Shown: piece by piece, positions 1,084-37,954 of the stretch | Layout of the letters: the number at the start of each line of letters is the position of its first letter | How positions within the stretch are numbered: position 1 is the stretch's first letter | UHGV virus genome: UHGV-0114795 | Direction: 5' to 3' (one strand) | Length of the DNA: 37,954 bases | Origin: a virus | Made by a program: the position numbers and the translations under genes | Notes under the pieces: model-generated | Databases searched by the model: none | Told to the model about the DNA's origin: nothing | What the model saw: the letters and a program-made list of their open reading frames with translations, nothing else

Positions 1084-1244
1084 TTTATCAGTTCGCTACC
1101 ATCCGTACCAGTCCGCAAAATCCCCTTAATATCAAGCCTTCCGTAGATTCACAGTTCGTCATGGTTCGCTTCAGATCGTTGACAGCCGCACTCCATGACG
1201 GGTAAAAAGTGGATAAAATAATTTTACCCACCGGATTTTTACCC

Positions 1245-2402
1245 ATGCTCACCGTTAAGCAGATTGAAGCAGCAAAGCCGAAAGAAAAACCATACCGCCT
1301 TCTCGATGGTAATGGCCTGTACCTTTATGTCCCTGTATCCGGGAAAAAGGTATGGCAGCTTCGCTACAAGATTGACGGTAAGGAAAAAATACTGACCGTA
1401 GGAAAATATCCGCTTATGACTTTGCAGGAGGCAAGGGATAAAGCATGGACTGCGAGGAAAGACATCTCGGTTGGCATCGATCCGGTAAAAGCGAAAAAGG
1501 CTTCGTCTAACAACAACTCCTTTAGCGCCATTTACAAGGAATGGTACGAGCACAAGAAGCAAGTCTGGTCAGTAGGCTATGCAAATGAACTTGCAAAAAT
1601 GTTTGATGACGACATTTTACCCATCATCGGCGGCCTTGAAATTCAGGATATTGAGCCGATGCAACTGTTGGAAGTAATCCGCAGATTTGAAGATCGCGGC
1701 GCAATGGAGCGAGCAAACAAAGCACGCAGAAGATGCGGCGAGGTTTTCCGTTACGCTATTGTCACCGGAAGGGCTAAATATAACCCGGCACCTGACCTTG
1801 CTGACGCCATGAAGGGATACCGCAAGAAGAACTTCCCGTTTCTTCCTGCAGACCAGATCCCGGCATTTAACAAAGCACTTGCAACATTTTCAGGAAGCAT
1901 CGTATCGCTCATTGCGACCAAAGTTTTACGCTACACAGCCCTAAGAACGAAAGAGCTTCGTTCCATGCTATGGAAGAACGTCGATTTTGAAAACAGGATT
2001 ATCACTATCGACGCCAGTGTGATGAAGGGCCGCAAGATTCATGTTGTTCCTATGTCAGACCAGGTGGTTGAACTTCTCACTACGCTAAGCTCAATCACCA
2101 AACCAGTATCAGAGTTTGTTTTTGCCGGTCGCAACGATAAGAAGAAGCCAATCTGCGAGAACGCGGTACTGCTTGTGATCAAACAAATCGGCTATGAAGG
2201 TCTGGAAAGCGGTCACGGATTCAGGCATGAATTCAGCACGATTATGAACGAGCACGAATGGCCTGCTGATGCTATTGAAGTGCAACTGGCACATGCCAAC
2301 GGCGGATCTGTGCGCGGGATTTACAACCATGCTCAGTATCTAGATAAGCGCAGAGAAATGATGCAGTGGTGGGCGGACTGGATTGATGAAAAGGTAGAGT
2401 GA
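1245..2402 (+). CDS. intS: Tyrosine recombinase, P4-like prophage integrase (CPS-53/KpLE1 IntS type)
   Basis: 385 aa from ATG at 1245 (MLTVKQIEAAKPKEK...), recalled as essentially identical to E. coli K-12 IntS next to argW; ORF-track start at 1209 (GTG) is probably an upstream extension. C-terminal catalytic region with R...H..R...Y pattern. Confidence 0.85.
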   Translation: MLTVKQIEAAKPKEKPYRLLDGNGLYLYVPVSGKKVWQLRYKIDGKEKILTVGKYPLMTLQEARDKAWTARKDISVGIDPVKAKKASSNNNSFSAIYKEWYEHKKQVWSVGYANELAKMFDDDILPIIGGLEIQDIEPMQLLEVIRRFEDRGAMERANKARRRCGEVFRYAIVTGRAKYNPAPDLADAMKGYRKKNFPFLPADQIPAFNKALATFSGSIVSLIATKVLRYTALRTKELRSMLWKNVDFENRIITIDASVMKGRKIHVVPMSDQVVELLTTLSSITKPVSEFVFAGRNDKKKPICENAVLLVIKQIGYEGLESGHGFRHEFSTIMNEHEWPADAIEVQLAHANGGSVRGIYNHAQYLDKRREMMQWWADWIDEKVE

Positions 2403-2529
2403 GCGACCTTAACAACTATCGAATAGCACAAAGCCTTGCAGTCAGTACAAAGCTTTGTGTTCATCAGTTTTGTCTCATCAACCACAGTAAGTCATCGATC
2501 GATTAAGAATTTGATGATAGTTTTGTCAA

Positions 2530-4455
2530 CTATAGCAATCTTATTTCTCCACCATGAACATTTATTGGCGTCATAAGAAGCGGACTCTCTACTACGACAA
2601 ACCCATTTTCATTACTTATAACCGGAGTCTTTGATTCATCAGATGTTGAAATAACCATCGCTTTATCTCCTGCCACAACACCTAACCAAAACCATGTCCC
2701 CAAGTTATGATCTATCTTCAATGCTAAAAAAATAAGCTGTGTATCAGAGTATTGTATTTGCGTTGTCCATTTTGCTCTAGTGTCTGAACCTGAAACCTCT
2801 GTAGAGACACTTGCGCCAACTGTATGTGCAGCAGAGCTACCGTTACTCATTTTGCCGTTAACAAGCTGCGGGTGGTATTTACTGGTCTGTTTGGCTTTCC
2901 CTACAACTGAACTAAGTCCTAAATCCGGGTGGTAGAAAACTATAGTCTGGTCTACTGTGCTGGCCTCTTTAGCGGATGCAGCAGGTAGTGTTGTACCGCC
3001 TGGTTTTATATCTGTTTGCCAGTGAATGTCGGAAAGGTTGTACGGAGACCCTTCGTTAAGGTCCCACCAAACTGCCCCTCCTCCAATACGGTTATTAGGC
3101 ATAATTCTTACGTTGGTATTGTCGTCGAATGCACCAAACATTTTCATACTGCTACCGTAAATCCAGCAGTTATCCAGCGTAATGTTATTTGCGCTCGTTG
3201 CTATAACCCCATACACATTGCTTTCGTTTGACTCTATGTAGCATGAATCAAACTTGATGTTATATGCACCTGCAATCCAAACACCGTGAGTACGAAAACT
3301 TTCAATACCACAGTTGAACAGCGTAAGTGCCTCTACCGCACCTTCAAACTTAAAACCTACATCACACTCTCCTGTGTGAACCGATACTAATGGCTGAATG
3401 TTGCATTCATCAGTAAAGTGATAGCGATGCAGACCAGTAGTATATGTACCATTGCACTGAAGATTGCGAAATAAAGAGTAAAAGCAGCGCTGAGTGTAAA
3501 CCAACTGCTGGACATTTACTCCAACAATATCTGTAACCTCGCATCCAAATACATGATTCCGCAAACGTAACCCCTGATAGAAATTAATCAGTGTGGCATT
3601 GCGAATTATTGTTCCTATGGTTAGATACTCTTCACCAGACTTTCCAAATACAGAAGATATAGCACCACTAGAAGCTATATAACCAGTCTCAATGAATACG
3701 TTATTTTCGTCGGAAGTATCGTCGCGGCCTACGATGCGAGCGCCCTGAAAATCGATCACTTGCACCCGACGATTAGGGAAATTAGTTTCTTCAATGTCAG
3801 ATGGAGATTCTGAAGCCAACACATAAACTTTACCGGCGATGTAATAGCTTTTCCACGGAGTGGCTACTACTTTAACACCACCTGCACGCCACGCAGCAAT
3901 CAGAGCGGCCTGAAATGCGTGTGTGTCGTCATGCTTGCTTGGGTTATCTTCTCCGTTCAATAAGTAGGCATCGCCATACGCACCAAAGTCATCTACATTA
4001 ATTTCCTGATTAAAGTAGTCAGATGCTTTTCTGGTTGCAGCATCAGCATAAGGCTTCTTAAATGAAATATAAGAAGCACCATCATCAGATGATAAGCGCG
4101 AAGAAAGTTGATCAGGGTCATACTTCAGCACATTAGGGAAATAGAACTGCTGCGATCCATACGCATCATAAACAGCCATAGAATGGCCTTGCACAGTTAC
4201 GAACTTAGCAATCTGTCCGTTATATACCGGGTAACCAGCAGCGTTAATGATGATTGGTTGCGAAACAGGAACGTGAGAGCCGTCTTCGTTCTCCACATAA
4301 ACCTGAATCTGGTTTTCGGGATTTACCGGGTCCGTGTCAATTTTACCGATATAAATTTTACCATTAGCATTTGCTTTAAACGAGCGAGCTAAAGTAAATA
4401 ACTGACTTGGTTGTGAAACAACAACGTTGTATAATTGTTCTGGCATAATAAACAT
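2530..4455 (-). CDS. Tailspike protein: P22 gp9-like N-terminal head-binding domain fused to a divergent receptor-binding domain of unknown specificity
   Basis: N-terminus ([66 protein letters not shown]) closely resembles the P22 tailspike N-terminal domain from memory; the remainder does not resemble P22 gp9. True start may be the ATG at 4446. Confidence 0.8.
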
Positions 4456-4468
4456 TCCGGAGAAAATA

Positions 4469-36704: not shown

Positions 36705-37028
36705 ATGAAGCTAAACATCGACCTCGGAAAATACGTTATTACCGGAACCAAACACGACCTTATTCTTAGCGAAAGAGGAATTATCAAAGAAGGCGAGAAT
36801 GCAGGGAAAGAAACACTAAGTCGTATCGGTTATTACAGCAAGTTTGAGCATCTGGTTAAAGAGTTATGCAACCGTGAAATCCTGTTATCTCAGGCGCAGA
36901 CGCTACAGGATATTCAGCAGCATATCGAAACTTTAGGTATGTCACTTAGCATGGCTATTGACCAGTTCGTGGAGAGTAAATCACGAGAGGACTTGCATAC
37001 AATCCCGGCATTCTTCCGGCAGAAATGA
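36705..37028 (+). CDS. Hypothetical protein (107 aa)
   Basis: ORF with GGAG upstream. Confidence 0.45.
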
Positions 37029-37146
37029 TTATTCGCCAACGCGTAAAGCCAATGCCATCGAGAGAGGAATTGCTTAAGAGAAATAGTTTCGGTTCTGTTA
37101 ACGACAACAAATATCTGAATGCGATGTGGCGCAAAGGAGGCAACCA

Positions 37147-37515
37147 GTGAGCAAGATTGACTATCAGGTACTGCGTGAAATCGCAGCGGCAGCAGTTGGC
37201 GCACATGAGCGCCTTAGTGTTATGCCGCCTGATGACATTTTCGATATCTCACTGGCAGAAGGAACTCAGCTTGATGCAGATATCACTGCCTTGAACGCGC
37301 TGAACTCCGCAGCAAACCCCACTACCGTGCTGGCGCTGCTGGATGAGCTGGAGAAGATGCAGGCGCAATCGTCCAAATGGTGCGAAGCCTTCCATAAAGC
37401 CGTTTCCGTTGGCGCTCGGTATGAGGAGCGGATTGCTGAACTGGAAGCACGGGAAATATCGCTCCCGGAACGTAGCAGCATGCTTCATCGAACAGATTTT
37501 CACGATGATTACTAA
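37147..37515 (+). CDS. Hypothetical early protein (Ea-region)
   Basis: GTG start with AAGGAGG 6 nt upstream; ORF-track start 37126 is an alternative GTG. Confidence 0.45.
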
Positions 37516-37591
37516 ACGGTAATGGCATACAAAGTTTCTGAAGTCATCGATGCAATCCGCGCTACTGGCATTCGCATCAAAGGAGAGTGAT

Positions 37592-37954
37592 ATGAGCGCT
37601 ATAACCAAAGAACGTGTCGAATTATTCATTAAGAATCCGCTTGATAACGGACTTACCCGTGGCGAACAAATGGAACTGGCACGAATTGCACTGGCATCGC
37701 TGGAAGCGGAGCCTTTGTGTTATCTCACCTGGCATCAAGGGTTCCGTGCTCCTGATGACTGTGAGGAATACGTTGTTGAAGCCAATCCTGGTGACAAATC
37801 ATGCGATGGTACCCCTGCGTTTCCAGTGTACACCGCCCCGCCAGTTCCGGTATCTGTGCCCGCTGCGATGGAAATTGATGATGACTTTGACAGCGCGTTT
37901 GAACACGGAAAAGCTGTCGGCTGGAACGCCTATCGCGCCGCCATGCTTCAGGCC
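37592..37954 (+). CDS. Hypothetical early protein, 3'-truncated by window end (possibly Ea22/Ead-like)
   Basis: ATG at 37592 with AAGGAGAG upstream; open to the end of the window; not in ORF track because no stop in view. Confidence 0.45.
   Translation, partial: MSAITKERVELFIKNPLDNGLTRGEQMELARIALASLEAEPLCYLTWHQGFRAPDDCEEYVVEANPGDKSCDGTPAFPVYTAPPVPVSVPAAMEIDDDFDSAFEHGKAVGWNAYRAAMLQA

What the first reader, a model, noticed from the sequence alone, without database searches (positions are those of the whole stretch)
1084..37954. Overall mosaic architecture: P22-type virion and replication modules, lambda-type N/CII/Q regulation and nin genes, phage-21-type lysis, K-12 IntS-type integrase
Each module is individually recognisable but the combination is unusual, and several segments (Q, cII, N, ral, ninG/H/I, oop, nut sites) look nearly identical to lambda while adjacent segments are unrelated. 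This sharp patchwork implies recent recombination among lambdoid phages and identifies the junction-associated accessory genes (HNH, MTase, lipoprotein pair, Rha cluster) as the most likely places for undescribed functions.
Basis: partly seen in the sequence, partly recalled or inferred. Interest (0 to 1): 0.45.

Follow-up and report, generated by a model that had tools for sequence, protein, structure and literature searches.

The report
Ordinary mosaic P22-like prophage at argW
The window holds an apparently intact P22-like E. coli prophage integrated at the argW tRNA gene, and its patchwork of lambda-, P22-, Sf6- and HK620-like blocks is real but normal for this phage group, with every block already seen in other E. 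coli or Salmonella prophages.

Summary
From the attL core (1069-1084, the 3' end of argW) to the window end runs a P22-like (Lederbergvirus-type) prophage built as a sharp patchwork.

Module assignments:
- The integrase is 99% identical in protein to K-12 IntS.
- Virion genes follow P22 order, at 62-98% nt identity to P22.
- Q, ninB, ninG/H/I, cII, N, ral, nutL and nutR are 92-100% identical to lambda. The blocks between them are unrelated to lambda.

Three labels need correcting:
- Only the endolysin is phage-21 type. The holin belongs to the HP1 Pfam family, and Rz/Rz1 are P22/Sf6-like.
- Only the helicase is P22-like. The initiator's origin-binding half is a different allele.
- Only the terminator half of oop is lambda-like.

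The combination is not unusual. P22 itself carries a lambda-type Q. No single record covers more than 53% (phages) or 81% (E. coli genomes) of either overlapping query section. Even so, each block recurs elsewhere at about 88-100% identity, often with the same neighbours.

54% of 79 homology breakpoints lie within 30 bp of a gene boundary, against 13% expected at random.

The window is the last 37,954 bases of a metagenome contig, so attR and xis are missing. A second assembly rules out chimerism for most of it.

Verdict: a new member of a known kind, of low interest.

The parts
1009..1084 (+). tRNA-Arg(CCU) argW, with the attL core CTGCAGGGGACACCAT at 1069-1084. This is the left prophage boundary.
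   Evidence: ARAGORN and Rfam tRNA. The core is identical to the HK620 and Kapi1 attP cores and occurs once in the window. Phage homology starts at 1069.
1245..2402 (+). IntS-type tyrosine integrase, 385 aa.
   Evidence: 99% protein identity to K-12 IntS, Sf6, Kapi1, IME10 and Louie integrases. 96-97% nt identity.
2530..4446 (-). Tailspike, 638 aa. It has a P22 head-binding N-terminal domain and a beta-helix receptor-binding domain of a rare type.
   Evidence: Pfam Head_binding, E 4e-64, and Beta_helix. Only the N-terminal domain matches PDB tailspikes. The receptor-binding domain DNA occurs in 3 of 5426 E. coli genomes. Proteins 94-100% identical exist in E. coli and Salmonella.
4469..4969 (+). 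Free-standing HNH_3 + AP2 homing-endonuclease-like gene. It is inserted after codon 5 of the ancestral tailspike gene, and the dead stub ATGACAGACATT survives at 4968-4979 (-).
   Evidence: Pfam HNH_3, E 2e-16, with AP2 below cut-off. PADLOC 'HEase'. 100% protein identity to Kapi1_066. The empty site is in E. coli 19AR0254.
5080..6530 (.). P22-type immI region: ant (5080-5961, -), sar antisense RNA (5960-6026, +), arc (6027-6188, -), mnt (6279-6530, +), with overlapping Pant/Pmnt promoters.
   Evidence: arc and mnt are 98% identical in protein to P22, and ant is 85% over 58% of its length. Rfam sar scores 71.6 bits. Promoter-like sites at 6256-6228 (-) and 6223-6251 (+), and a terminator at 5062-5043.
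6547..7272 (.). Divergent accessory pair at the position of P22 sieA: a lipoprotein (6547-6966, -; lipobox LSGC) and a 62-aa two-helix membrane protein (7084-7272, +).
   Evidence: phrog_6823 and phrog_21338, both of unknown function. A weak PEGA match. No PADLOC or PDB match. 97-100% identical in phage Gally and in E. coli 19AR0254.
7290..14437 (-). Ejection and tail-completion genes gp16, gp20, gp7, gp14, gp26 (Sf6-type needle with knob, 282 aa), gp10 and gp4.
   Evidence: P22 order and lengths. Protein identities to P22 are 59-93%. gp7 to gp10 are closer to HK620/Sf6 at 86-99%. There are internal junctions in gp16, gp20 and gp26.
14415..15008 (-). WDGH-domain ORF (197 aa) inserted between the coat gene and gp4. 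Its N-terminal ~47 aa resemble the small P22 orf69-type gene.
   Evidence: Pfam WDGH, E 2e-39. phrog_3769 and phrog_1175. Absent from all 14 comparator loci. Present in the same context in 42 E. coli genomes at 98-99%.
15052..21409 (-). Head and packaging genes: coat, scaffold, portal, TerL and TerS, with the P22 pac 22-mer at 21115-21136.
   Evidence: 99-100% protein identity to IME10/Louie, except TerS at 82%. TerS is 100% and TerL 92% identical to P22. P22 nt identity jumps from 70-77% to 93-99% at ~20,000, inside TerL. The pac 22-mer is exact and is also found in P22 gene 3.
21427..23278 (-). Lysis-to-terminase accessory cluster: orf59, orf95, DUF2560, Rha (Phage_pRha + ORF11CD3) and orf50.
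   Evidence: Pfam and PHROGs. Rha is 96% identical to Klebsiella phage phiKp_30 Rha and 55% to the P22 ORF at the same position.
23266..24399 (-). Lysis cassette: class II holin with a dual start MYRMDK (24196-24399), an R21/RrrD-type endolysin predicted to be signal-anchor-release (SAR) type (23721-24224), and Rz with embedded Rz1 (23266-23724).
   Evidence: Holin is Pfam PF16080, and PF04971 is below cut-off. The endolysin is 95% identical to RrrD and matches 3hde at E 1e-105. The cassette is 98% nt identical to Salmonella phage Emek and also occurs in PS34, BTP1 and phiKp_30.
24400..24957 (-). Late leader: a lambda-identical PR'/qut (-35 to -10 at 24887-24915), a substituted terminator (24823-24853), then the lambda-like leader up to the holin ribosome-binding site.
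   Evidence: Alignment to lambda 44480-45200. Coordinates.
24958..28535 (-). Q and the nin region: Q, ninI, ninH, ninG, ninF, ninE, ninD, MT-A70 methyltransferase (27508-28098, in place of ninC) and ninB.
   Evidence: Protein identity to lambda: Q 99, ninI 95, ninH 100, ninG 98, ninF 93, ninD 87, ninE 55 and ninB 99%. MT-A70 is Pfam E 7e-25 and PADLOC MTase_II E 4e-70. ATGA start/stop overlaps at both MT-A70 borders, read directly from the sequence.
28609..30929 (-). Replication module: a DnaB-type helicase (28609-29985) and an O-like initiator (29982-30929) with 12-bp-period ori iterons at 30372-30514.
   Evidence: The helicase is 90% identical to P22 gp12 and 99% to Kapi1. The initiator is 97-100% identical to Kapi1, Gally and GPEC60, and 58% to P22 gp18 over its C-terminal 41%. 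Iterons.
30932..32626 (.). Immunity region: orf90, cII (31227-31520, -), PRE cII site (31498-31511), oop terminator (31251-31278, +), nutR (boxB 31600-31614, boxA 31619-31631), cro (31640-31855, -) and cI (31931-32626, +).
   Evidence: cII is 98% identical to lambda. cro and the cI N-terminal half are unrelated to lambda but 99-100% identical to phage Louie. The cI C-terminal half is 93% nt identical to lambda. Site alignments.
32752..37954 (+). Early-left operon: PL (32752-32780), nutL (32820-32850), N, ral, orf98, orf62b, a CIII-like ORF (34434-34604), orf103, RecT, Gp157-family protein, orf104, DUF5405, Ea22-like protein, and a partial EaA-like ORF (37592 to the window end).
   Evidence: N is 91% identical to lambda and 100% to HK544. 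ral is 98% identical to lambda. nutL boxB is identical to lambda and boxA has one change. Pfam RecT, Sipho_Gp157, DUF5405 and Ead_Ea22. The contig ends here.

Best explanation
This is an apparently intact temperate phage of the P22-like branch of the lambdoid phages (Lederbergvirus type). It is integrated by an IntS/KplE1-type integrase into the 3' end of argW in an E. coli chromosome.

Predicted workings (inferred from homology, not tested):
- cI/cro immunity of the phage Louie type, plus a P22 immI antirepressor circuit (mnt, arc, ant, sar).
- Lambda-type N/nut and Q/qut antitermination, and cII/PRE for establishing lysogeny.
- An O-like initiator with iterons, working with a DnaB-type helicase.
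- P22 pac-directed headful packaging.
- A class II holin with a SAR-type endolysin for lysis.
- An O-antigen-specific tailspike.

Origin of the patchwork:
- It is the standard product of repeated exchange of gene- or domain-sized cassettes within the shared pool of enterobacterial lambdoid prophages.
- Recombination happens in short conserved flanks, helped by phage Rad52-like recombinases and Orf/Rap. Selection then keeps only joins at gene or domain boundaries.
- This prophage encodes all three helper functions: RecT, NinB and NinG.
- The lambda-like blocks are pool alleles, not recent imports from lambda itself.
For: - Gene order and intact ORFs of expected length for all P22 essential functions.
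- Identity maps show alternating blocks of 92-100% identity and unalignable sequence against lambda, P22, Sf6, HK620, Kapi1, IME10, Louie, Gally and HK544.
- Of 79 breakpoint clusters, 54% lie within 30 bp of a gene boundary. Random placement gives 13%, with a maximum of 27% in 2000 trials.
- In-gene breaks fall where I know or expect domain borders, which was not tested: tailspike anchor|receptor-binding domain, the needle knob, cI N|C, O N|C, and inside TerL.
- Regulatory sites are conserved: nutR is exact, nutL has one change, PR'/qut is exact, and the cII site and the P22 pac 22-mer are exact.
- Every block recurs elsewhere.
- Published support: mosaic early operons and a lambda-type Q are normal in P22-like phages (PMC2629481). 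Kapi1, Sf6, HK620 and KplE1 share this attP at argW (bioRxiv 10.1101/2021.04.09.439263). Rad52-like recombinases, Orf and Rap drive mosaicism (PMC3945230). Tailspike receptor-binding domains swap while anchors stay fixed (PMC10408124).
Against: - The right end (xis/TorI-type directionality factor and attR) is outside the window, so integrity of the excision module is unknown.
- Function of every gene is inferred from homology. Nothing was induced or expressed.
- The sequence comes from a metagenome contig. Window 23.7-30.5 kb was not reproduced as one piece by the second assembly.
- ICTV-style genome-wide nucleotide identity to any named Lederbergvirus is only about 50% (coverage times identity), so formal genus or species placement is open.
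Confidence: 0.9

Rival explanations
1. The patchwork, or part of it, is an assembly chimera. The metagenome assembler may have joined reads from several co-resident lambdoid prophages across shared repeats.
For: - The window is identical to the last 37,954 bases of ENA metagenome contig ERZ19663511 k119_7280.
- The Logan assembly of run ERR1620275 breaks at about 23,690 (Rz/endolysin) and at 30,472 (O-gene iterons). These are places where repeats shared with other prophages are expected.
Against: - The Logan contigs are base-for-base identical to the window over the stretches checked, 1-14,446 and 30,472-37,918, and their gene content and contig coordinates extend the left one to about 23,690.
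- The ENA contig is recorded in 2 samples, with 4 further similar places.
- The unreplicated middle is spanned elsewhere at 98%. A 708-kb metagenome contig (L035) covers 24,818-28,536. A 655-kb contig of an NCBI genome assembly (L020) covers 28,531-32,873. Phage Emek covers 23,718-24,572.
- Junctions sit at gene boundaries with ATGA overlaps, not at arbitrary repeat edges.
Confidence: 0.05
2. This is a very recent hybrid between phage lambda itself and a P22-like phage, which is the first reader's 'recent recombination' reading.
For: Several 200-bp windows are 98-100% identical to lambda in Q, ninG, ninH and cII. nutR and PR'/qut are identical to lambda.
Against: - Over whole blocks, lambda identity is 92.9-97.3%.
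- HK544, Sf6, IME10, Louie and E. coli prophages are as close or closer in the same blocks, at 97-100%.
- P22 itself carries the same Q at 96% protein identity, and the epsilon34 paper puts P22 and epsilon34 Q at 99% identity to lambda Q.
- ninE is only 55% identical to lambda's.
- The same joins are found in dozens of isolates.
Confidence: 0.05
3. This is a defective, non-inducible prophage remnant like CPS-53 at the same site.
For: - It occupies the same attachment site and has the same integrase type as the K-12 cryptic prophage CPS-53.
- The right end is unseen.
- The 2403-2520 spacer matches the CPS-53 region downstream of intS.
Against: - All structural, lysis, replication and regulatory ORFs are full length when compared with functional phages P22, Kapi1, IME10 and Louie.
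- No IS elements or frameshifts were seen.
- The visible 36.9 kb plus an estimated 1.5-2.5 kb of missing right end fits a P22-like genome size. This is an inference from L018.
Confidence: 0.1

Closest known systems
Escherichia phage vB_EcoP_Kapi1 (MT813197), a temperate P22-like phage at argW
   Same: - Same att core and integrase (99% protein identity).
- Same HNH cassette inside the tailspike 5' end (100% protein identity) and same ant (99%).
- Same orf90-O-helicase replication module (97-99%) and same RecT-region genes.
- 34% of the prophage aligns at 90% nt identity or better.
   Different: Kapi1 differs in its head genes (coat 26% protein identity), immunity region, N, nin region (roi/rusA type) and lysis cassette (lambda S/R type). 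It carries tRNA genes after Q and has a different tailspike receptor-binding domain.
Phages IME10 (NC_019501) and Louie (PQ850616), and the E. coli 19AR0254 prophage
   Same: - Coat, scaffold, portal, TerL and gp4 are 99-100% identical in protein.
- Louie also shares the cI/cro immunity region and cII (99-100%).
- The 19AR0254 prophage sits at the same argW site and covers 81% of window 1-25,000 at 97.1% nt.
   Different: - TerS is only 82% identical in these relatives, whereas the window's TerS is 100% identical to P22's.
- None of them has the WDGH insert.
- They have different tailspikes, lysis cassettes and replication genes. Louie has a DnaC-type loader.
Salmonella phage P22 (AF217253)
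   Same: - Same overall gene order, with 55% of the prophage alignable.
- TerS is 100% identical and the pac 22-mer is exact.
- arc, mnt and sar are shared. The helicase is 90% and Q 96% identical in protein.
- Rha and DUF2560 sit at the same position.
   Different: - Most virion genes are only 62-80% nt identical.
- P22 integrates elsewhere (thrW, from my own knowledge) with an unrelated integrase.
- P22 carries sieA, gtrABC, gene 24, c2/cro, c1, erf/abc and a P22-type lysozyme, all different from the window.
Phage lambda (NC_001416)
   Same: Q, ninB, ninD, ninF, ninG, ninH, ninI, cII, N, ral, the cI C-terminal domain, nutL, nutR, PR'/qut, the PRE cII site and the oop terminator. Together these cover 14% of the prophage at 90% nt identity or better.
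   Different: All virion genes, int/att, O/P, cro, the cI DNA-binding domain, the operators, the S/R lysis genes, red/gam and rex differ. ninC is replaced by MT-A70.
Shigella phage Sf6 and coliphage HK620
   Same: - Same argW att core and integrase (98-99% protein identity).
- gp7, gp14 and gp10 are 88-99% identical.
- Sf6 shares the knobbed tail needle (86%), the N/nutL block (97.7% nt) and the ninG-ninI block (97.6% nt).
   Different: They have Sf6-type terminase, portal and coat (no alignment, or 33% at best). Their immunity, replication initiator and lysis genes differ. Downstream of int they carry an O-antigen-modifying or polymerase gene (oac in Sf6, hkcF in HK620), which is absent here.
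Lysis cassette of Salmonella P22-like phages PS34, Emek and BTP1, versus phage 21 / DLP12
   Same: - The holin and endolysin are 99-100% identical in protein to Emek and phiKp_30.
- The endolysin is 95% identical to DLP12 RrrD and matches the solved lysozyme 3hde, which I take from memory to be phage 21 R.
   Different: The holin is not in the S21 family (33% identical to EssD, and Pfam PF04971 is below cut-off). Rz is 59% identical to RzpD.

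Membership tests
P22-like phages (Lederbergvirus type) | Virion gene cluster in the order 3-2-1-8-5-(4)-10-26-14-7-20-16 ... 9, with homologous proteins. | tested here: met
   All 13 genes are present in this order as full-length ORFs, with 59-100% protein identity to P22. Precomputed Pfam hits on the same genes name the P22 families, for example P22_portal, P22_CoatProtein and P22_Tail-4.
P22-like phages (Lederbergvirus type) | Tailspike with the P22 head-binding N-terminal domain. 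| tested here: met
   Pfam PF09008, E 4e-64. Matches the N-terminal domains of PDB P22 and Sf6 tailspikes.
P22-like phages (Lederbergvirus type) | ICTV genus criterion of about 70% nucleotide identity over the full genome to a member (criterion quoted from my own knowledge). | tested here: inconclusive
   The best single relatives cover 46-54% of the prophage at about 95% identity. P22 covers 55% at about 78%. Kapi1 is filed in the genus with only 20% coverage to P22. The right end of the prophage is missing.
Lambdoid phages | Lambda-like order of functions, with N/nut and Q/qut antitermination and cI/cro/cII control. | tested here: met
   Gene map. nutL, nutR, PR'/qut and the cII site were aligned to lambda.
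Lambdoid phages | Ability to form viable recombinants with lambda. | not testable with these tools
   This needs a genetic cross.
IntS/KplE1 (CPS-53) argW integration module | IntS-type integrase plus the 16-bp core at the 3' end of argW. | tested here: met
   99% protein identity to K-12 IntS. The core lies at 1069-1084 inside argW.
IntS/KplE1 (CPS-53) argW integration module | TorI-type recombination directionality factor and attR at the other end. | not testable with these tools
   The contig ends at 37,954, before the right end. Only one core copy is in the window.
Phage-21-type lysis cassette (S21 pinholin + R21 SAR endolysin) | R21-family endolysin with an N-terminal signal-anchor-release segment. 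| tested here: met
   Matches 3hde at E 1e-105 and is 95% identical to RrrD. The hydrophobic N-terminal stretch [17 protein letters not shown] is conserved.
Phage-21-type lysis cassette (S21 pinholin + R21 SAR endolysin) | Holin of the S21 family (Pfam PF04971). | tested here: not met
   PF04971 scores 19.5 bits against a cut-off of 26. The best family is PF16080 (HP1) at 75 bits. It is 33% identical to EssD. The two-helix layout and the dual start MYRMDK resemble S21, so it may work like a pinholin, but it is not a family member.
P22 immI region | mnt, arc and ant genes with sar antisense RNA and overlapping divergent promoters. | tested here: met
P22 pac-type headful packaging | P22 gp3-type small terminase containing the 22-bp pac sequence. 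| tested here: met
   TerS is 100% identical to P22 gp3. GAAGATTTATCTGAAGTCGTTA is exact at 21115-21136 and at P22 position 23479, inside gene 3. That this 22-mer is the P22 pac site comes from my own knowledge.

The most novel reading that the evidence does not exclude
One or more of the cassette-like accessory genes at module joins may encode an undescribed prophage-expressed exclusion or defence function. The best candidates are the divergent lipoprotein and small-membrane-protein pair that occupies the P22 sieA position (6547-7272), and the WDGH-domain ORF embedded in the late operon (14415-15008). A plausible example is a periplasmic block of DNA ejection by other P22-like phages. Neither candidate matches anything in PADLOC, the PDB or named families, and both recur in dozens of E. 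coli prophages.
Probability: 0.25. Interest if true: 0.45.

Novelty: new member of a known kind. Interest (0 to 1): 0.13.

Why it matters
It matters little beyond cataloguing. The window is a clean, well-resolved example of lambdoid mosaicism, with breakpoints at gene and domain boundaries. It adds one more module combination to the P22-like prophages at argW.

Practical value is limited to three points:
- It gives a correct annotation. The holin family, the initiator allele, the partial oop and the missing right end are all corrected.
- It flags a rare tailspike receptor-binding domain that is shared at 94-95% identity between E. coli and Salmonella prophages.
- It points to a few accessory cassettes of unknown function that could be tested for superinfection exclusion.

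Tried and rejected
- An exact 30-mer from the tailspike receptor-binding domain found nothing in genome contigs or viral contigs, so no source genome or IMG/VR twin was recovered that way.
- The look-up of encoding contigs failed for the 641-aa tailspike start and for the GTG-start Ea22 ORF, because my start codons were wrong. It succeeded with the 638-aa tailspike, DUF5405, Rha, RecT and MT-A70.
- PADLOC gave no hits for the lipoprotein, orf62, WDGH, Rha, orf95, orf90 or orf62b.
- PDB sequence searches and NCBIfam gave nothing useful for the WDGH protein or the lipoprotein.
- No paper contains the phrase 'WDGH domain'.
- No sigma-70-like promoter was found for an oop-like RNA upstream of 31251.
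- I considered and rejected assembly chimerism, a recent lambda hybrid and a cryptic remnant (see the rival explanations).
- I did not fetch a phage 21 genome. DLP12 essD/rrrD/rzpD and PDB 3hde served as stand-ins.
- I did not predict structures for the accessory proteins, because that lies outside the architecture question.

Full report
**What the window is.** Bases 1-933 encode the host gene yfdC. tRNA-Arg(CCT), which is argW, lies at 1009-1083. The host flank 1-1000 has 13 mismatches to K-12, about 98.7% identity, so the host is E. coli or Shigella. Phage homology begins at 1069. The 16-bp core CTGCAGGGGACACCAT, identical to the attP core of HK620 and Kapi1, lies at 1069-1084 and occurs only once in the window. 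So attL is present and attR is not.

The window is base-for-base the last 37,954 nt of a 48,537-nt ENA metagenome contig (ERZ19663511 k119_7280). That contig ends inside the early-left 'ea' genes. The prophage therefore runs off the window, and its xis/attR end cannot be judged.

**Checking the observation.** I fetched lambda, P22, Sf6, HK620 and K-12 CPS-53, plus the closest relatives found by megablast: Kapi1, IME10, Louie, Gally, HK544, phiKp_30, Emek and two E. coli prophages. From these I built nucleotide and protein identity maps.

- Integrase: 99% protein identity to K-12 IntS.
- Lambda-like blocks:
  - Q to ninD (24858-27513) is 94.5% nt overall, at 96-100% in 200-bp windows over Q, ninI, ninH, ninG and ninF.
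  - ninB is 96.5%, cII plus nutR 97.3%, the cI C-terminal half 93.3%, nutL 96.8%, N 92.9% and ral 96.6%.
  - In protein identity to lambda, Q is 99%, ninH 100%, ninG 98%, ninB 99%, cII 98%, ral 98%, ninI 95% and N 91%.
- Unrelated to lambda: the blocks in between do not align at all. These are MT-A70, helicase, O, orf90, cro, the cI N-terminal half, the operators and the holin.
- Virion genes: 7522-21585 aligns to P22 in P22 order at 62-98% nt. Lambda covers 14% of the prophage at 90% identity or better, P22 7% (55% at any identity), Sf6 18% and HK620 20%.

The patchwork is real.

**Corrections to the module labels.**

- *Lysis.*
  - The endolysin is R21/RrrD type. It is 95% identical to RrrD and matches PDB 3hde at E 1e-105.
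  - The holin is Pfam PF16080 (HP1 family, 75 bits). It scores below cut-off for the phage 21 S family (19.5 against 26 bits) and is 33% identical to EssD.
  - Rz/Rz1 are P22/Sf6-like at 84-97%, against 59% to RzpD.
  - At the DNA level the cassette is the one found in Salmonella P22-like phages PS34, Emek and BTP1 and in Klebsiella phage phiKp_30, at 93-98% nt.
  - The holin keeps a dual start, MYRMDK, like S21's MKSMDK. It may therefore work like a pinholin, but it fails the family test.
- *Replication.* The helicase is P22 gp12-like (90% protein identity). The initiator matches gp18 only over its C-terminal 41% (58%). It is the Kapi1/Gally allele (97-99%), with its own 12-bp-period iterons at 30372-30514.
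- *oop.* The lambda homology stops within a few bases of the cII stop codon. The oop terminator (31251-31278) and the 3' two-thirds of the RNA are conserved. The 5' ~25 nt and the promoter region are replaced, and no promoter-like site was found.
- *Virion module.* It is itself mosaic.
  - P22 identity jumps from 70-77% to 93-99% at about 20,000, inside TerL.
  - TerS is 100% identical to P22's and carries the exact 22-bp sequence that I recall as the P22 pac site.
  - Coat, scaffold and portal are the IME10/Louie type (99-100% protein identity).
  - gp7, gp14 and gp10 are HK620/Sf6-like, and the needle is the Sf6 knob type.

**Regulatory sites.**

- nutR boxA and boxB are identical to lambda. 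nutL boxB is identical and boxA differs by one base.
- PR' and qut are identical to lambda up to about +20. The leader and terminator are then replaced. Lambda homology resumes and runs right up to the holin ribosome-binding site.
- The PRE cII site is exact.
- The P22 immI circuit is complete: mnt, arc, ant, overlapping Pant/Pmnt promoters, and a sar RNA that passes Rfam's gathering score.

**Junctions.** I clustered the ends of all alignments with at least 90% identity into 79 breakpoints. Of these, 54% lie within 30 bp of a gene boundary, with a median distance of 22 bp. Random placement gives 13% (maximum 27% in 2000 trials) and a median of 163 bp.

In-gene breaks fall where I know or expect domain borders, which I did not test: tailspike anchor|receptor-binding domain (4106), the needle knob (~12,300), cI N|C (32,216), O N|C (30,356) and inside TerL (~20,000). 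MT-A70 replaces ninC exactly, with ATGA start/stop overlaps at both ends as in lambda. This is the textbook signature of lambdoid mosaicism.

**Is the combination unusual or new?**

- No phage record covers more than 53% of either overlapping query section.
- Only one of 5426 complete E. coli genomes covers at least 80% of window 1-25,000 (19AR0254, 81% at 97.1%). None covers at least 80% of 20,000-37,954.
- Every piece is known, however. 34,532 of 37,954 bases are at least 90% identical to one of just 14 comparator loci.
- The four gaps also recur in E. coli genomes:
  - The WDGH insert occurs in 42 genomes at 98-99%.
  - ninB-MT-A70-ninD occurs in 39 genomes at 98-99.5%.
  - orf98 and orf62b occur in 60 genomes.
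  - The tailspike receptor-binding domain occurs in 3 genomes at 88-97%.
- The receptor-binding domain protein also exists at 100% identity in E. coli and at 94-95% in many Salmonella prophages.
- The exact RecT protein is listed in 417 blocks of the collection, and the six places shown sit next to three different kinds of host flank. The exact MT-A70 protein is in 292 blocks, always between ninB and ninD in the ten places shown, with varied neighbours beyond them.
- Published work says the same. P22, epsilon34 and Para1 have Q proteins 99% identical to lambda Q, and the early operons of P22-like phages are highly mosaic (PMC2629481). Kapi1, Sf6, HK620 and KplE1 share this attP at argW.

So the combination is new only in the trivial sense. 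It is not unusual.

**Control for assembly artefact.**

- A second assembler (Logan, run ERR1620275) produced contigs that are base-for-base identical to the window over the stretches checked, 1-14,446 and 30,472-37,918, and their gene content and contig coordinates extend the left one to about 23,690. The left contig also carries about 10 kb of E. coli flank holding mlaA, the long-chain fatty-acid porin gene and fatty-acid oxidation genes.
- The middle 23.7-30.5 kb was not replicated as a single piece.
- That middle is spanned at 98% by other records: a metagenome contig (L035, 24,818-28,536), an NCBI genome-assembly contig (L020, 28,531-32,873) and phage Emek (23,718-24,572).

I put chimerism at about 5%.

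**Accessory genes.**

- *HNH.*
  - The 'HNH' is an HNH_3 + AP2 free-standing endonuclease gene on the opposite strand. It is 100% identical to Kapi1_066.
  - It sits inside the ancestral tailspike 5' end. The old start ATGACAGACATT (MTDIT, as in P22, HK620 and the empty site of 19AR0254) survives as a dead stub at 4968-4979. The live tailspike restarts 22 bp from the HNH gene with [11 protein letters not shown].
  - This is typical of a homing cassette.
- *MTase.* It is an MT-A70 adenine methyltransferase. It has no partner nuclease next to it, and it matches a PADLOC type II methyltransferase model at E 4e-70.
- *Lipoprotein.* The lipoprotein (6547-6966, lipobox LSGC) and a divergently oriented 62-aa membrane protein occupy the position where P22 has sieA. 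Only 22 of 66 P22-like phages carry sieA (PMC10883804). Both proteins fall in PHROGs of unknown function, with no PADLOC or PDB match.
- *Rha.* Rha (Phage_pRha + ORF11CD3) sits where P22 has its homologous ORF201, which is 55% identical.

**Explanation.** This is an ordinary, apparently intact P22-like temperate phage. All P22 essential functions are present as full-length ORFs, although nothing about function was tested.

Its mosaic is best explained by repeated homology-driven cassette exchange within the enterobacterial lambdoid prophage pool. De Paepe et al. showed experimentally that Rad52-like recombinases, Orf and Rap drive such mosaics (PMC3945230). This prophage carries RecT, NinB (Orf) and NinG (Rap). 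Tailspike receptor-binding domain swapping behind a conserved anchor is likewise established (PMC10408124).

'Recent' cannot be judged. The lambda-like blocks are 3-7% diverged from lambda and are equally close or closer to other pool members.

**Verdict.** The element is a new member of a known kind, and its interest is low (0.13). The only reading with some novelty is that the sieA-site pair or the WDGH ORF encodes an undescribed exclusion function. That remains untested.

Noticed in passing
window 4446-4979: The HNH_3/AP2 gene is inserted after codon 5 of the ancestral tailspike gene. The old start (MTDIT) is left as a 20-codon stub at 4968-4979 (-), and the live tailspike restarts with MPEQLY 22 bp from the HNH start. 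Kapi1 has the same layout. E. coli 19AR0254 has the empty site.
   Followed up: yes
window 14415-15008 (-): A WDGH-domain ORF (197 aa, Pfam PF25311, phrog_3769) lies between the coat gene and gp4. It looks like a small orf69-type gene extended by a domain insertion. It has no promoter or terminator of its own. It occurs in 42 of 5426 E. coli genomes, and no paper mentions the domain name.
   Followed up: partly
window 19438-21409 (-), pac at 21115-21136: There is a recombination junction inside TerL at about 20,000, where P22 identity rises from 70-77% to 93-99%. TerS is 100% identical to P22 gp3 and carries the exact 22-bp sequence I recall as the P22 pac site. The nearest head-gene relatives, IME10 and Louie, have a different TerS (82%).
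   Followed up: partly
window 6547-7272: A lipoprotein (weak PEGA-like match) and a divergently transcribed 62-aa two-helix membrane protein replace sieA between gp16 and mnt. There is a candidate promoter at 7025-6997 (-). Neither protein matches any defence or structure library.
   Followed up: partly
window 1-37954; loci L022-L026: The window is the 3' end of ENA metagenome contig ERZ19663511 k119_7280 (48,537 nt). Independent Logan contigs from ERR1620275 break at about 23,690 (Rz/endolysin) and at 30,472 (O-gene iterons).
   Followed up: yes
window 2530-4105 (-); proteins P0001, P0045-P0048: The tailspike receptor-binding domain is rare in complete E. coli genomes (3 of 5426). It is 94-95% identical to tailspikes found on hundreds of Salmonella enterica contigs, which suggests an O-antigen type shared across the two genera.
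   Followed up: partly
window 24196-24399 (-): The HP1-family class II holin has a dual-start motif, MYRMDK, resembling the S21 antiholin/holin pair. It overlaps the endolysin gene by 29 bases.
   Followed up: no
window 2403-2529: There is no O-antigen-modifying or polymerase gene (gtrABC, oac or hkcF type) between int and the tailspike. The 118-bp spacer still matches the K-12 CPS-53 region between intS and yfdG, and the match ends about 35 bp before the point where gtrA starts in K-12.
   Followed up: partly
window 31205-31278: The oop terminator and 3' part are kept, but the 5' end and promoter are swapped for sequence belonging to orf90. Whether any oop-like antisense RNA is still made is unclear.
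   Followed up: partly
window 34434-34604 (+): A 56-aa ORF begins like lambda CIII (MQQFAIAG) and has a short LLEKLWDIL helix, but it has no Pfam CIII hit. It may be a divergent FtsH inhibitor.
   Followed up: no
window 27195-27511 (-): ninE (55% protein identity to every comparator) and ninD (87%) form a divergent islet inside an otherwise 96-100% lambda-like nin block.
   Followed up: no
window 24743-24857: There are no tRNA genes downstream of Q. Kapi1, Sf6 and the two E. coli comparator prophages carry tRNA-Asn and tRNA-Thr at this position. The lambda 6S/tR' segment is replaced by a shorter leader with its own terminator (24823-24853).
   Followed up: no
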